Assembly: GCA_021432655.1 (NCBI GenBank) | Contig: MU271650.1 | Span: forward strand, 1-35,486 | Direction: 5' to 3' | Length of the DNA: 35,486 nt | Source of the DNA: Atractiella rhizophila | Lineage: Eukaryota | Part shown: positions 13,338 to 21,005 of the stretch, piece by piece | How positions within the stretch are numbered: the stretch's first letter is position 1 | Layout of the letters: each line of letters starts with the position of its first letter | Position numbers and translations under genes: made by a program | The notes under the pieces: generated by a model | What the model saw: only the letters and a program-made list of their open reading frames with translations | Database searches by the model: none | What the model was told of the DNA's origin: nothing

Positions 13338-15416
13338 CTACAGTCCCCCAGGCACGTTGCTAATAAAATTGTCCATTTTAGGAAAAGGATTGTCCTTACT
13401 CAACACCATGAGCTGATGAGGGTGGGAGAGGTATCCTTTGATGAGACCCTGTGCGCGACTTCAATAAAAATAGAATGAAAGGACGTAAGAACAAAGGCAA
13501 ACCTGACGGATCATGTTAGCAAGAACACATTCGACCTCATCTGCGTCCATGTCCGGGCTGTTCACTTCCCGAAAGACGTCAAGGATGATGTCCAATCGTT
13601 GGCGGCTATCTCTATTGTTTACAATCCAGATCTTCTTGACCAGTCGTCTGACAACGGCTTGTCTCGCAACCATGACCAAGAGAAGAGTACCACGAGCACC
13701 CAGTCTCGCACGACCTCTTTCCAGCGCTTGATCCCACGCAGCCGGATTTCCCTGCTTGTACGCTTCCACAAAAGGCTCATACAAGATCTTTAACCGATGA
13801 AAACTCTTGAGGAGGTTCTTCGATGGCAAAGAGCCACGGAGAAGTCGAAGGGGTATTAACAAGTCGAGAATCAGCTCTCGATTTCGGATCGAACGTCGAT
13901 GACAAAGAACGAATGATAGCGAAAGTTCGCGCTCTGCAGTCGCAAAATCTTCCTTCAAAAAAGCGATCAGACCCATGTAATAAAGGTAAGTGACTTTGTC
14001 AGCTTTTGGGCAAGTGTGCTGAAGAACCGGGGCGATGTCGGCAGCTGCTATTGTCGCGCTTATATTCTTGAAAAGATGTAAAGTATCCATCTGCGACGCA
14101 AGCATGAACTCAGGCTCATCTTTCCTTGAGAAGGAACGGACCTTGTGATACATTTTGATAAGGAGGTTAGCAAAGAAATAGCATTCTGTACTCTTTGGTA
14201 AGTCACTAGTTACCTGTGTCCTGCATCGATAGTTTGAGAATGATGCATATTCAGAGGGGCAGACAACTTGCCGATCGTTAGTACAAAGGTTGAAGACTTT
14301 GCTAATGATTCTCGATGCTTCAGTGGTTTTGGGCCACCGAGGCTCCTCTGGGTCATAATTCCCATTTTCCAACGCACAAGAATAGGAGAAATCATCCGTC
14401 TACATCATAGAAGCTTAGGCTGTGATCCCTTGTGGAGGCAGAAAAGTACTTCGATCGATATCCTCTTAAAGTCCGAGCAAACGGTCTTGAGGAGTGGTAG
14501 TGTCCACGAAGTCGAGCGCGAAGAAGTCTGCAAGTATCGCAAAAGTGCACTGCAAGTCTCGTCAGCTACTTCTTCCTCCGTTTCTTGCCCATCAAGAGCT
14601 TCGGAATCGCAAACAAAGAGCATCTCCCAGATCGGCTCTAGTAGACTTTTACTTGTCCGGGTGCAACACTCCTGTACTAAAGCTTGATATACTTTATCGC
14701 TTGACGAAAATCGTAGAACCGTCTCCAGTAAAGTTCAAGTGCTGTCAACTCATGGGGGGAGATGACACTTTCAAGGCAAAGCCACCTGAAGTAGGGATGA
14801 AGGCACACAGCATTTCTACTTGCAGACAGAGTCTTCCCAAGATCGTGGGATGAAGACGACACCAGTTATGAAGTGTAGAAACAAATGTCAGACGCGTCTC
14901 TGTCCTCCACCAGCCTTTTATGCTTTCTTGCGGCTGGAAAGGGAGATGGTTTGGTTGAATCAAAATAGGTGTGCACTTCTAGCCAGTCGCGATGTCTGTT
15001 AATGAGTTCTTCCGTCTGATTCTCACGGCACGTCCTGTTGCGTTTTCAAATGCCCATAGCTTGCCATCTAGAGGCACTCGTTTACTAATGTAACCCAACA
15101 GAATCCCAGAACAGCTACACAAAGGACGGATGAAGAGAACAAAGAATGAGACATACTTAACAACTCCCCTCTGTCCATTCCAAGCTTCTTCCTTCCACCT
15201 TTCCCTCTCCCTATCCCCCATCGCATCCTCTCCCTCCTTCAAAGCACTCATACACTTTGCGTGCTCCTCCGCCATCTCGTACCACGGCTTCTGGAGCTTC
15301 GCAAACTCGTATTGGTTCAGGTTCGATCGCGAGGGCGGGTAGAGGGAGAAGAGGGAGGCTAGTTGGGTGCCGGAGTTGATTCGGACGGAGGAGAGGAGAT
15401 GGGTGACGAAGGACAT
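13338..15416 (-). CDS. PCI-domain protein of the PCID2/Thp1/Csn12 family (TREX-2-type subunit)
   Basis: FNLCTNDR..CYFFANLLIKMY, VTYLYYMGLIAFLKEDF..AERELSLSF..CHRRSIRNRELIL..LIP, and winged helix [38 protein letters not shown]. Stop TAG at 13338-13340. Thp1 vs Csn12 orthology cannot be settled by eye. Confidence 0.9.
14550..15156 (-). other. Unusually long (607 nt) first intron of the PCID2/Thp1-like gene
   Basis: Donor GTATGT at 15156, branch GCTGAC at 14566-14561, acceptor CAG at 14552-14550. Splicing restores the frame (..GVVN-ALLRYLQ..). Other introns parsed in the window are about 45-120 nt. Confidence 0.75.
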
Positions 15417-15619
15417 GTTGGACTATTTGTCTTCTCTGTCTTCTCTAAGCAATGGTCGTTGGGGTGTTGCAGCCTGCTGTTGAGGGGGGAGATGATGAAC
15501 GATGAAGCCAATTGCTTTGATCACCTTTTATTTCTTCTTCTCTTTCGTACGCTATTCGTCTGACTTGCCCAACGCCTGAACTGCAGCACTGTCGCCAGCG
15601 AACCCACCAATAGACACCA
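15417..15619. promoter_or_regulatory. Putative bidirectional promoter between the PCID2/Thp1-like gene and SAC3
   Basis: Only 203 bp separate the divergent start codons (15416 on -, 15620 on +). Central T-rich tract at 15514-15545. Confidence 0.7.
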
Positions 15620-18600: not shown

Positions 18601-21005
18601 CCCATAAAGATATCTACACCTGGACCTTCCATCTTTGGCCGTGAGTCTGAACCCCCTTCTTATGCACCTACACCTCCGTCGATACCACAAACCCCAAAAC
18701 TGGCAGAAGAGAAGAAAGCGCCATTCGCCTCCCCCTTTGCTCCCATTGTTTCAGCACCAGTATCTTCGTCAGCACCGTCGACCTCCGCTGTGTCCATCGA
18801 GAAACATATCCCCTCTAAACCTGCCGCTCCCATACAAGCAAAGCGGCTCGATGAAGGGCTTGTGGAGTTCTTGGTTCGAGGCTGTGTTGATCGAATCGTA
18901 ACGCATACCCTGGAACGACCAATCGAGTTCGCTGCTGATGAAGCGATGGTGGAATATAATACTAGAAAGGACGAAATAGCGTCAGCTAAGGCGGAGCAGA
19001 GAGCTGCAGTCATCTCTAACATGTTAGTAGACCTCCTTGTGAACGAGGCAGCACTTAAGTTGGAGAGGGATCTGCGGTTGCGAGGGACGGCGTGGCGGCG
19101 GTGGAAGGGAAAAAGAAGTGAGAGGAGGAGGAGGAGGGAGGAGACGGTAGAGCAGTTGGAAAAGTTCAGAAAGGATGTTGAGGGGTTGGGGAGCTCGCAG
19201 AGCAGACGGCAGATGACGGAGGGACGGATAGCAGGGAACATTGGAGAGAGAAGAAGGTGGAAAGGGAAAGAACGGGAGGTTGAAGAGGATGGGATGGAAG
19301 AGTTACTCAGAGAGGTGGGCGATATTCCTCTTACCGGACCTTTCGAGGCCCTTTCGATTCGCGATTCCTAACGACCCTCTCTCTGTTTGTGTTGTCCCGC
19401 TCCTCCTCTCTCGACCTTGCACAAGATAGGCACAGACCCTCCGCGATCAGATTTGGACGAAATCAACTTTCTATTACCTCACCGCTAAATGGGTCAATTT
19501 CCTTTGCCAGAAATGGAGACCCAGCCAGATTCCTCGTTGGAAAGTTGTCATCCTTTCCATGAGCTCCAACAGTCCTACTTCAGCTTGGTTCAGCTGTAAA
19601 TTCGCCATTCCCCCCTTCTCCAGCTTCCAAAACGTTACTATTGAGGTGGAAAGCGTCGAAAGCATATTAGAGGTCGACGATAGAGATCGAATTGGACTTG
19701 TAATCTTCGACTGCACTAGCAGCGAACACGAGAGCAACAATCCGTACGTCCTTGTTAGGCAATACAGCTCAACTGACATCGTTCCATAGGTCATTTTGGG
19801 AAGAAGCGAGGCACAAGTTGCACGAGGCTGCGGAAGCGCTTGCAATCGAAACAACTTATTGTCCAAGTTTGTTGGTAGCTTCTTGTGTTCCTCAGCGAGG
19901 AGAATCGGTCACTCTTATGGAGAGACAGGTAATTCTTTAATCACTTTGTATGTGCGCTAATTGACCTAATCGTTGGCGCAGATTGTGGAAAATCTCGGTA
20001 TGCAGCGTCCTCAGGACATTTGGGCGACCCATATTGTCCGCTTGTTGCCCGTCCAAGACTCCGAACCCATCTTCGCGACCGATATCACGATACTATTGCC
20101 CGAAATCCAGTTCAGGTCTAACCAGAAAGTGGTATCGGCTGCCGATTTCATCGTGCCTTTCTTGAACTTGTGGAAGACAGCGCTGTCGACATCCAGCGAT
20201 GTCGTCCGCAATTCTCGTTCGTCCCATGTTTGTAGATCTGGGAGCGGACGCTGAATGTCCCATACAGAACACTCCGCAATTGCAGCCCTCGTCCTCCACT
20301 TGTTTATGTCTTCACTCCTCCACCTTGCGGACCTGGTCAGTCGATCTGTAGTGAGAGATCTTGGGAAATCATTCAGAGCATCCGGCGCCGCGCTACCAGC
20401 TCTTTCAATATCTCCAGGGTACGGTCTTCGCTTCTTTTCGTCAACCCTGTTGGCTAACAGAACATGATCAGCTCGTCCATCGGAGCACAAATTCTCAGCT
20501 ATCTCGAACAGCCAGCGTTCAACGTCGAGAACGAGAACGGTAGTTACGGCAACGAAAAGCAAAAGCGTGACTTCGAAAGAAATCAAGCCGATTTACAGAG
20601 TCTGAAAAGCGCGATCACAGATATGGAGTCGGAATGTTGGTATTTTTTGTTTGATTTACTTCAGCTTGGCTGAAACCCCGCTCCCTTCTAGTTCAAGTGA
20701 TCCTCGCCTTTCTCGACTTTTTGCCCAGTTATCTGCATCCCAAGCTCGTCCTCATACGGGTCCTCCAACCATTGTCAGAACGCTCCCAGCTTTTGCGTGC
20801 ATTCCAACAAAGGCTCGAACAAGATGTAAAGGCAATTCAAGTGAAGTTTTCGGATCTGGAAAAGGAGAGTGAACTGAAGAAGACTAAGAAGCGGAAGGAG
20901 TTGGAGAGCAAGGAAAAGGTACAGAGCCCCAATAAGAAGATAAAATTGGAGGATTTGATGAGGGAAATGAGGGAGGCGAGGGAGAAATACCTTCTTGTTA
21001 CCTAG
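15620..21005 (+). CDS. SAC3: Sac3/GANP family mRNA export scaffold (TREX-2), multi-exon
   Basis: [98 protein letters not shown] (SAC3/GANP core). Also an RG-rich N-terminus, a Pro-rich linker, and a CID-like helix ending AWRRWK. The downstream exons to 21005 were joined by inferred splicing. Confidence 0.92.

What the first reader, a model, noticed from the sequence alone, without database searches (positions are those of the whole stretch)
13338..21005. Head-to-head TREX-2 'two-subunit cassette': PCID2/Thp1-like gene and SAC3 share a 203-bp promoter
Seen in sequence: the two genes diverge with ATGs at 15416 and 15620. Established knowledge: Sac3/GANP and Thp1/PCID2 form a 1:1 PCI heterodimer (with Sem1/DSS1) at the core of TREX-2, and the genes are unlinked in S. 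cerevisiae and human. Inference: a shared bidirectional promoter could hard-wire subunit stoichiometry, as in histone H2A/H2B pairs. The linkage would also indicate which Sac3-family protein (Sac3 vs Thp3/LENG8) this PCI protein partners. I do not know of a description of this linkage, but I cannot search the literature.
Basis: partly seen in the sequence, partly recalled or inferred. Interest (0 to 1): 0.85.

Follow-up and report, generated by a model that had tools for sequence, protein, structure and literature searches.

The report
Neighbouring SAC3 and PCID2 genes, Atractiella
In the root fungus Atractiella rhizophila the genes for two partner proteins of the mRNA-export complex TREX-2 really do sit back to back 203 bases apart, but the pairing is missing from every other fungus that could be checked, so it looks like a local accident of gene order rather than a conserved design.

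Summary
The window is a whole 35,486-bp scaffold of Atractiella rhizophila (Pucciniomycotina). It carries a 421-aa PCID2/CSN12-family gene (minus strand, 13338-15416) and a 1571-aa SAC3/GANP gene (plus strand, 15620-21005). They diverge with 203 bp between the start codons. Spliced RNA contigs from a transcriptome and from root metatranscriptomes support both gene models.

- **No conservation.** In 7 of 7 other fungi where both orthologues could be placed (4 Pucciniomycotina, 3 Taphrinomycotina), the two genes lie on different contigs.
- **No adjacency in metagenomes.** None of 80 metagenome loci holding a PCID2 relative has a SAC3 domain nearby. Only 30 of them have at least 3 kb upstream, representing 16 organisms.
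- **The spacer is not special.** The neighbouring intergenic gaps here are about 80-190 bp.
- **Partner choice stays open.** The PCI protein belongs to the conserved PCID2/Csn12 group, not the yeast Thp1 type. In humans one PCID2 serves GANP, LENG8 and SAC3D1, so linkage cannot identify its partner.

No whole genome was held, so I could not test for a second Thp1-like paralogue. The most likely reading is a lineage-specific, probably neutral juxtaposition. It may incidentally couple expression. Interest is low.

The parts
13338..15416 (-). PCID2/CSN12-family gene, coding sequence with stop codon: 6 exons, 421 aa (= P0001)
   Evidence: The spliced model is identical to P0001. The joints are seen in RNA contigs of X6, X1 and X4. 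PCI domain. Human PCID2 1.1e-45, yeast Csn12 1.4e-21.
14550..15156 (-). First intron of the PCI gene, 607 nt, GT..AG
   Evidence: The joint 14549/15157 is present in X6, X1 and X4 contigs. The other 15 introns of the two genes are 46-115 nt. No Rfam match and no repeat elsewhere in the window.
15417..15619 (.). 203-bp spacer between the two start codons; the untranscribed part is probably 117 bp or less
   Evidence: Sequence. An X6 RNA contig over the SAC3 5' end reaches back to about 15534, inferred from 'from_end' 74 at position 15608 and the bin depth. There is no upstream ATG in 15534-15619.
15620..21005 (+). SAC3/GANP gene, coding sequence with stop codon: 12 exons, 1571 aa
   Evidence: Model built. 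Ten joints are in RNA contigs. The intron 20636-20691 rests on sequence and a loose end at 20692 in X2.
16892..18158 (+). SAC3_GANP (PCI-fold) region, spread over four exons
   Evidence: Pfam PF03399 at 8e-66 and 3.1e-06. Best PDB matches: yeast Sac3 3.2e-33, human GANP 2.9e-16, SAC3D1 3.2e-09; no LENG8 or Thp3 at E<=1. A home-made HMM hits 17136-17924, the end of 15614-17104 and 17957-18205.
19430..20635 (+). C-terminal region of SAC3 shared with other fungal Sac3 proteins (about residues 1125-1430)
   Evidence: blastp gives collinear C-terminal matches in 26 of 119 fungal Sac3 subjects, E 1e-7 to 1e-17. The joint 19312/19428 joins it to the upstream exons in X6 and X2 contigs.

Best explanation
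This is a genuine but lineage-specific, divergently transcribed pair in Atractiella rhizophila. One gene encodes the Sac3/GANP scaffold of TREX-2. The other encodes the fungus's conserved PCID2/Csn12-type PCI protein. They share one short promoter region. Shown: both genes are intact, spliced and expressed, and the arrangement is absent from every other fungus that could be compared. Inferred: a chromosomal rearrangement in the Atractiella lineage brought the genes together in a gene-dense region. A shared nucleosome-free promoter probably gives some correlated transcription, as for short divergent pairs in general. The two products probably form the PCI heterodimer with Sem1/DSS1, by homology to Sac3-Thp1 and GANP-PCID2. 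Nothing indicates that the linkage was selected to fix stoichiometry, and it does not show which SAC3-family protein the PCI protein partners.
For: Coordinates and gene models. Expression and splicing: transcriptome run X6 and root metatranscriptomes X1 and X4 show the joints. Identities: SAC3_GANP 8e-66; yeast Sac3 3.2e-33 and GANP 2.9e-16, with no LENG8/Thp3; PCID2 1.1e-45. In a tree of 126 of the 152 proteins held, P0001 sits within a Pucciniomycotina clade (Cronartium, Pseudohyphozyma, Meredithblackwellia, Microbotryum, Rhodosporidiobolus); Mixia, although Pucciniomycotina, falls outside it next to Kockovaella (names). Non-conservation, 7 of 7 species with the two orthologues on different contigs (PCID2 side; Sac3 side): Mixia osmundae 504,386 vs 2,325,249 bp; Pseudohyphozyma bogoriensis 119,064 vs 93,628; Rhodosporidiobolus ruineniae JCM8097_000512 vs _008990; Microbotryum intermedium BQ2448_464 vs _6335; Schizosaccharomyces japonicus 3,866,997 vs 3,035,653; Pneumocystis jirovecii T551_00373 vs T551_00951; Saitoella coloradoensis 308,388 vs 424,436. 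0 of 80 metagenome PCID2 loci hold a SAC3 domain by tblastn or HMM. The HMM positive control on the window scored 5.1e-99; 30 loci have at least 3 kb upstream and represent 16 organisms. Local compactness: the DDB1 stop at 13258 is 79 bp from the PCI-gene stop at 13338, and minus-strand ORFs begin at 21199, about 190 bp past the SAC3 stop.
Against: No other Atractiellomycetes genome could be examined, so the pair may be conserved within that class. The synteny test is indirect: it uses contig lengths and locus tags, not aligned DNA. It covers only species that appeared by chance in both hit lists. The 80 metagenome loci are unidentified eukaryotes, mostly from aquatic samples, and may include no fungi. 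For this specific pair, adjacency under random gene order is unlikely (about 2 divided by the gene number; my own estimate, not a tool result), which leaves room for selection. Co-variation of expression could not be measured, because contig depths cannot rank genes.
Confidence: 0.7

Rival explanations
1. Selected co-regulation cassette: the linkage is kept by selection because one bidirectional promoter delivers Sac3 and its PCI partner in matched amounts.
For: The two products are homologues of proteins that form a 1:1 PCI heterodimer (PDB matches; literature passages). The spacer is very short, with at most about 117 bp untranscribed. Both genes are expressed in the same RNA runs. A paper seen only as a search listing and abstract start (PMC5654408) hypothesises that gene orientation affects expression coupling and noise, singling out divergent pairs.
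Against: The pair is absent in 7 of 7 other fungi compared, including 4 Pucciniomycotina, and in 0 of 80 metagenome loci. TREX-2 works with unlinked genes in yeast and human (recalled gene locations). Human PCID2 also serves LENG8 and SAC3D1, so a 1:1 transcriptional lock to Sac3 would not match its demand if Atractiella resembles human. Neighbouring intergenic gaps are equally short.
Confidence: 0.12
2. Functionally coincidental neighbours: the PCI protein is the Csn12-type partner of a Thp3/LENG8-like protein (TREX-2.1), and a separate, divergent Thp1/Pci2-like paralogue elsewhere in the genome partners Sac3. This is the situation in S. cerevisiae.
For: P0001 and its family profile are much closer to yeast Csn12 (1.4e-21; profile 1.4e-53) than to yeast Thp1 (no phmmer hit at E<=10; profile 6.3e-24). 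Its relatives are named 'Protein CSN12 homolog' in Mixia, Kockovaella and S. pombe O13873. Yeast uses distinct PCID2 paralogues for Sac3 and Thp3 (passage of PMC13322074). From recall, S. pombe also has a second gene, pci2.
Against: The family is closest of all to human PCID2 (1.1e-45; profile 3.7e-108), which does bind GANP. No second Atractiella PCI protein appeared in the protein searches. Those searches are insensitive (2 and 3 hits), so this is weak evidence.
Confidence: 0.25
3. Assembly or annotation artefact: the adjacency results from a chimeric join in a small scaffold.
For: The scaffold is only 35,486 bp.
Against: The spacer has no N and no repeat. An independent RNA contig covers about 15534 onward into SAC3, and the PCI-gene contig reaches 15371. 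Composition is continuous across the junction. No single record listed spans 15371-15534, so the bridge itself is not independently confirmed.
Confidence: 0.03

Closest known systems
Human TREX-2 core GANP-PCID2-DSS1 and yeast Sac3-Thp1-Sem1
   Same: The same two protein families. The SAC3_GANP PCI-fold scaffold matches yeast Sac3 at 3.2e-33 and GANP at 2.9e-16. The PCI protein matches PCID2 at 1.1e-45 over residues 42-411.
   Different: In those organisms the genes are unlinked (recalled); here they are divergent neighbours. Binding of the Atractiella proteins was not tested.
Yeast Thp3-Csn12-Sem1 and human LENG8-PCID2-DSS1 (TREX-2.1)
   Same: The Atractiella PCI protein belongs to the PCID2/Csn12 group, so it may also serve a Thp3/LENG8-type partner, as human PCID2 does.
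   Different: The neighbouring SAC3-family gene is of the Sac3/GANP type, not Thp3/LENG8. It has no PDB match to either at E<=1, encodes 1571 aa with a central domain, and has a C-terminal region collinear with fungal Sac3.
Conserved divergent pairs encoding partner subunits, such as histone H2A-H2B
   Same: Head-to-head orientation, a short shared upstream region, and products expected to form a 1:1 pair.
   Different: Those pairs are conserved across wide phylogenetic distances (recalled). This pair was found in 0 of 7 other fungi compared.

Membership tests
PCID2 / Csn12 / Thp1 family of PCI proteins | C-terminal PCI / winged-helix domain | tested here: met
   PF01399 E 3.3e-08, 34.1 bits against a cut-off of 22, residues 369-403 of P0001.
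PCID2 / Csn12 / Thp1 family of PCI proteins | Full-length similarity to a solved family member | tested here: met
   Human PCID2 1.1e-45, query 42-411 against chain 37-396; yeast Csn12 1.4e-21. Family profile A2: PCID2 3.7e-108, Csn12 1.4e-53, Thp1 6.3e-24.
PCID2 / Csn12 / Thp1 family of PCI proteins | Orthology: placement follows the species tree | tested here: met
   FastTree of 126 sequences places P0001 within a Pucciniomycotina clade; Mixia falls outside it next to Kockovaella. S. pombe O13873 'CSN12 homolog' lies in the same family tree. The 26 proteins shorter than 330 aa and P0002 were left out.
Yeast-type Thp1 subgroup specifically | Closer to Thp1 than to Csn12/PCID2 | tested here: not met
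   No phmmer match to Thp1 chains at E<=10. The profile match to Thp1 (6.3e-24) is far weaker than to Csn12 or PCID2.
PCID2 / Csn12 / Thp1 family of PCI proteins | Forms a heterodimer with a SAC3-domain protein and binds Sem1/DSS1 | not tested
   No complex prediction was run. The Atractiella Sac3 region is split over four exons and no stored whole protein was available. A pass would largely reflect solved homologues.
Sac3 / GANP (TREX-2 scaffold) | SAC3_GANP domain | tested here: met
   PF03399 8e-66 (profile positions 24-238 of 289) and 3.1e-06 (positions 240-287) on consecutive exons.
Sac3 / GANP (TREX-2 scaffold) | Sac3/GANP type rather than Thp3/LENG8 or SAC3D1 type | tested here: met
   PDB: yeast Sac3 3.2e-33, GANP 2.9e-16, SAC3D1 3.2e-09, no LENG8 or Thp3 at E<=1. 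Named best database hits are called Sac3 or nuclear export factor, 1000-1630 aa. The C-terminal region is collinear with 26 of 119 fungal Sac3 proteins.
Sac3 / GANP (TREX-2 scaffold) | CID helix binding Sus1/ENY2 and Cdc31/centrin | not tested
   A basic, helix-like stretch follows the domain in the translation, but no model or search was applied to it.
Co-regulated divergent gene pair with a shared bidirectional promoter | Divergent orientation with a short spacer | tested here: met
   203 bp from ATG to ATG. The RNA contig starts near 15534.
Co-regulated divergent gene pair with a shared bidirectional promoter | Both genes transcribed | tested here: met
   Spliced contigs for both genes in X6. 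X1 shows joints for both genes, X4 only for the PCI gene, and X2 one PCI-gene joint plus SAC3 joints.
Co-regulated divergent gene pair with a shared bidirectional promoter | Correlated expression across conditions | not testable with these tools
Only contigs were available, and their depth cannot rank genes.
Co-regulated divergent gene pair with a shared bidirectional promoter | Linkage conserved across species, the hallmark of selected pairs such as H2A-H2B | tested here: not met
   0 of 7 species have both orthologues on one contig. 0 of 80 metagenome loci have a SAC3 domain beside PCID2.

The most novel reading that the evidence does not exclude
In the Atractiella lineage the TREX-2 scaffold gene and its PCI partner were captured under one promoter of roughly 120 bp, and the arrangement is kept by selection for matched dosage. 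That would also mark the single PCID2/Csn12-type protein as the true Sac3 partner in early-diverging Basidiomycota, the human-like state, rather than a yeast-like split into Thp1 and Csn12.
Probability: 0.12. Interest if true: 0.4.

Novelty: new member of a known kind. Interest (0 to 1): 0.15.

Why it matters
If the linkage were selected, it would be a natural example of dosage coupling between two subunits of an mRNA-export complex. It would also give a handle on which PCID2-family protein pairs with Sac3 in basidiomycetes. As the evidence stands, it is one more divergent gene pair in a compact fungal genome, seen in one species only. Its practical value is small. It yields an RNA-supported 1571-aa gene model for Atractiella SAC3 and shows that the Atractiella PCI protein belongs to the conserved PCID2/Csn12 group.

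Tried and rejected
- **Whole-genome search for paralogues.** I wanted a second PCID2-family or a Thp3/LENG8 gene, but no genome is held for this window.
- **Earlier findings of the scan.** There were no look-alike windows and no notes on this genome. A word search returned only two unrelated SAC3 notes, on Ostreococcus and Naegleria.
- **Word-indexed protein search for PCID2 relatives.** It gave 2 hits with the exon and 3 hits with an 80-sequence alignment. That is too insensitive to show presence or absence of paralogues.
- **Atractiella's own Sac3 protein.** It did not appear among the 120 listed of 228 hits in the 462-2000 aa range, so no stored whole Sac3 protein was available.
- **RNA depth as a measure of co-expression.** Rejected, because contigs cannot rank genes. 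RNA contigs do not cover 15372-15533, and this is not evidence of absence.
- **Small-share runs.** The small shares of X1, X2 and X4 are used only for the splice joints they showed.
- **Rfam on 13000-21500.** 0 matches at E<=1, so no snoRNA or other known RNA explains the 607-nt intron.
- **Repeats.** There is nothing beyond the GR-coding repeat, and the intron is unique in the window.
- **Other TREX-2 or PCI/SAC3 genes in the window.** 91 ORFs of at least 85 aa outside 11800-21100 gave only histone deacetylase, 2OG-Fe(II) oxygenase, DDB1-type propellers and a SAP domain. Small intron-rich genes such as SUS1 or SEM1 would be missed.
- **Complex and structure prediction.** Not run. The pair is a textbook one, and the Sac3 region is available only as separate exons.
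- **Literature.** Three searches for a described SAC3-PCID2/THP1 linkage listed nothing relevant by title: 4 papers held the terms and 3 were listed, 8 held and 6 listed, and 0. Supplements were not consulted.
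Full report
**What is there**

A protein search with the largest minus-strand exon returned P0001, 'hypothetical protein BT69DRAFT_1355686 [Atractiella rhizophila]'. It is 421 aa and lies on a contig of 35,486 bp, the length of the window. The window is therefore a whole small scaffold of this root-associated Pucciniomycotina fungus.

The reverse-strand ATG lies at 15416 and the forward ATG at 15620, leaving 203 bp (15417-15619) between them. 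The PCI-gene stop TAG is at 13338-13340 and the SAC3 stop TAG is at 21003-21005.

**Gene models and expression**

One run holding 0.59 of the sampled words (X6), two root metatranscriptomes (X1, X4) and one further run (X2) were laid on 13300-21100.

X6 behaves as a transcriptome of the same or a very close strain. Of its 57 laid records, 35 are at least 99% alike and 18 are 95-99% alike, and they skip introns.

For the minus-strand gene, five joints are seen in X6, X1 and X4:
- 13447/13502
- 14090/14142
- 14219/14271
- 14399/14450
- 14549/15157

Splicing at these joints gives a 421-aa protein identical to P0001. The first intron is 607 nt, whereas the other 15 introns of the two genes are 46-115 nt.

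For the plus-strand gene, ten joints are in RNA contigs. An eleventh intron (20636-20691) follows from GT..AG, from frame continuity, and from a contig of X2 that begins at 20692 with unaligned letters before it. The reading frame is then open from 15620 to 21005 and encodes 1571 aa.

Two introns appear to be GC..AG: one at about 14220-14270 and one at 16826-16891.

The exons after 19430 belong to the same gene:
- Contigs of X6 and X2 join 19312 to 19428.
- Residues about 1125-1430 match collinear C-terminal regions in 26 of 119 fungal Sac3 proteins.

An X6 contig over the SAC3 start reaches back to about 15534. This is inferred from a variant at 15608 lying 74 letters from the contig end, and from the bin depth. 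The PCI-gene contig ends at 15371, short of its ATG. The N-terminus aligns with homologues, so the ATG at 15416 is kept. The untranscribed spacer is thus probably 117 bp or less, which is an inference.

**Identities**

*The plus-strand gene is of the Sac3/GANP type.*
- SAC3_GANP (PF03399) scores 8e-66 and 3.1e-06 on consecutive exons.
- Against solved structures, the main exon matches yeast Sac3 (3.2e-33), human GANP (2.9e-16) and SAC3D1 (3.2e-09). It matches no LENG8 or Thp3 chain at E<=1.

*The minus-strand gene is of the PCID2/Csn12 type.*
- P0001 has a PCI domain.
- It matches human PCID2 over nearly its whole length (1.1e-45) and yeast Csn12 (1.4e-21). It does not match yeast Thp1 at E<=10.
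- A profile of 20 family members gives PCID2 3.7e-108, Csn12 1.4e-53 and Thp1 6.3e-24.
- An exhaustive HMMER search found 1763 relatives at E<=0.001. The nearest are only 39-43% identical.
- Named relatives are Mixia osmundae and Kockovaella imperatae ('Protein CSN12 homolog'), Pseudohyphozyma, Rhodosporidiobolus, Microbotryum, Meredithblackwellia, Cronartium and S. pombe O13873 ('Protein CSN12 homolog').
- In a tree of 126 of the 152 proteins held (those under 330 aa and P0002 left out), P0001 sits within a Pucciniomycotina clade, as an orthologue should. Mixia falls outside that clade, next to Kockovaella.

P0001 is therefore the conserved PCID2/Csn12-type protein, not a yeast-type Thp1.

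**What the literature adds**

Yeast uses distinct PCID2 paralogues: Thp1 pairs with Sac3 and Csn12 pairs with Thp3 (passage of PMC13322074). Human PCID2 forms mutually exclusive complexes with GANP, LENG8 and SAC3D1 (abstract and passages of bioRxiv 10.64898/2026.04.13.716336; passages of PMC13569498; passages of PMC12363940). Linkage to SAC3 therefore cannot tell which partner this protein serves.

No genome is held for the window. I could not test whether Atractiella has a second, Thp1-like paralogue or a Thp3/LENG8 gene. The word-indexed protein searches were too insensitive to decide (2 and 3 hits).

**Is the linkage conserved?**

No fungal genome collection was available, so I used two proxies.

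*Contig and locus-tag comparison.* The protein tools report the contig length, and often the locus tag, of each hit. Thirty PCID2 relatives were looked up by name, and 120 Sac3 hits were listed. Seven species appear in both sets with comparable records. In all seven the two genes lie on different contigs.

| Species | PCID2 orthologue | Sac3 orthologue |
|---|---|---|
| Mixia osmundae | 504,386 bp | 2,325,249 bp |
| Pseudohyphozyma bogoriensis | 119,064 bp | 93,628 bp |
| Rhodosporidiobolus ruineniae | JCM8097_000512, 94,653 bp | JCM8097_008990, 381,183 bp |
| Microbotryum intermedium | BQ2448_464, 2,982,376 bp | BQ2448_6335, 1,203,898 bp |
| Schizosaccharomyces japonicus | 3,866,997 bp | 3,035,653 bp |
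| Pneumocystis jirovecii RU7 | T551_00373, 626,993 bp | T551_00951, 602,696 bp |
| Saitoella coloradoensis | 308,388 bp | 424,436 bp |

S. pombe was dropped because its two hits come from different assemblies.

*Metagenome loci.* A metagenome scan with the PCID2 alignment gave 465 relatives, of which the best 80 loci were kept. None holds a SAC3 domain, either by tblastn with the Atractiella domain at E<=1e-3 or by an HMM built from the fungal Sac3 hits and the Atractiella domain. The same HMM scores 5.1e-99 on the window. Only 30 of the 80 loci have at least 3 kb upstream of the match, and these represent 16 organisms at 90% identity. The organisms are unidentified and may not be fungi.

Both proxies are indirect, and neither covers another Atractiellomycetes genome.

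**Context**

The region is gene-dense. A DDB1 homologue ends at 13258 (PDB 6.6e-28; Pfam propeller domains), 79 bp from the PCI-gene stop. Minus-strand ORFs begin at 21199, about 190 bp after the SAC3 stop. A 203-bp divergent spacer is therefore ordinary here.

No other PCI, SAC3 or recognisable TREX-2 gene was found among 91 further ORFs of at least 85 aa. No Rfam family matches 13000-21500. The only repeat in or beside the spacer is the GR-coding stretch at the start of SAC3.

**Mechanism and verdict**

*Shown.* Two intact, spliced, expressed genes of the Sac3/GANP and PCID2/Csn12 families diverge from a spacer of 203 bp. The arrangement is absent from every other species that could be compared.

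*Inferred.* The products form the PCI heterodimer with Sem1, by homology. The shared nucleosome-free region gives some transcriptional coupling, as hypothesised for close divergent pairs in general (PMC5654408, seen only as a search listing and abstract start). The juxtaposition arose by rearrangement in the Atractiella lineage.

For this named pair, chance adjacency in one genome is unlikely. However, it was noticed post hoc among thousands of neighbour pairs. In my own estimate, not a tool result, a few adjacent interacting pairs per genome are expected by chance. Without conservation there is no evidence of selection for stoichiometry.

Three literature searches found no description of the linkage. 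It is new as an observation, but it is one more member of a well-known kind, and I score it low.

Noticed in passing
window 14550-15156 (-): The first intron of the PCI gene is 607 nt, against 46-115 nt for the other 15 introns of the two genes. It has no Rfam match, no copy elsewhere in the window, and only trace RNA-contig depth.
   Followed up: partly
window about 14220-14270 (-) and 16826-16891 (+): Two introns fit GC..AG rather than GT..AG boundaries once the RNA joints are shifted within their stated ambiguity.
   Followed up: partly
window 13258-13338: A DDB1 homologue (plus strand, about 9377-13258) and the PCI gene converge with only 79 bp between their stop codons, so their 3' UTRs probably overlap.
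   Followed up: no
window 15620-21005: Atractiella's own Sac3 protein was not among the 120 hits listed (of 228) for proteins of 462-2000 aa, although the neighbouring PCI protein is in the collection. The public gene model may be missing, split or of a different length. The RNA-supported model here is 1571 aa.
   Followed up: partly
window 15646-15686: The start of SAC3 encodes a run of Gly-Arg repeats, and the N-terminal ~400 residues are low-complexity (RGG-like, Pro/Ala/Ser-rich). FG-containing stretches follow the PCI-fold domain. The read-laying tool skipped 15646-15686 as a repeat.
   Followed up: no
window 15508-15512: A CCAAT pentamer lies about 26 nt upstream of the first base covered by the SAC3 RNA contig. 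A single pentamer in 203 bp is within chance expectation.
   Followed up: no
P0004 (Pseudohyphozyma bogoriensis KAI5477030.1): This 1039-aa public model joins a PCID2 orthologue (residues 1-424) to a dynein light intermediate chain domain (506-721). It is probably two neighbouring genes merged. P0024 (Gonapodya sp.) similarly joins mitochondrial carrier repeats to PCID2.
   Followed up: partly
window 22857-24541 (+), 1678-2529 (+), 5363-5791 (+): Other recognisable genes on the scaffold are a SAP-domain protein, a histone deacetylase and a 2OG-Fe(II) oxygenase. Much of 25-35 kb has long ORFs without any Pfam match.
   Followed up: no
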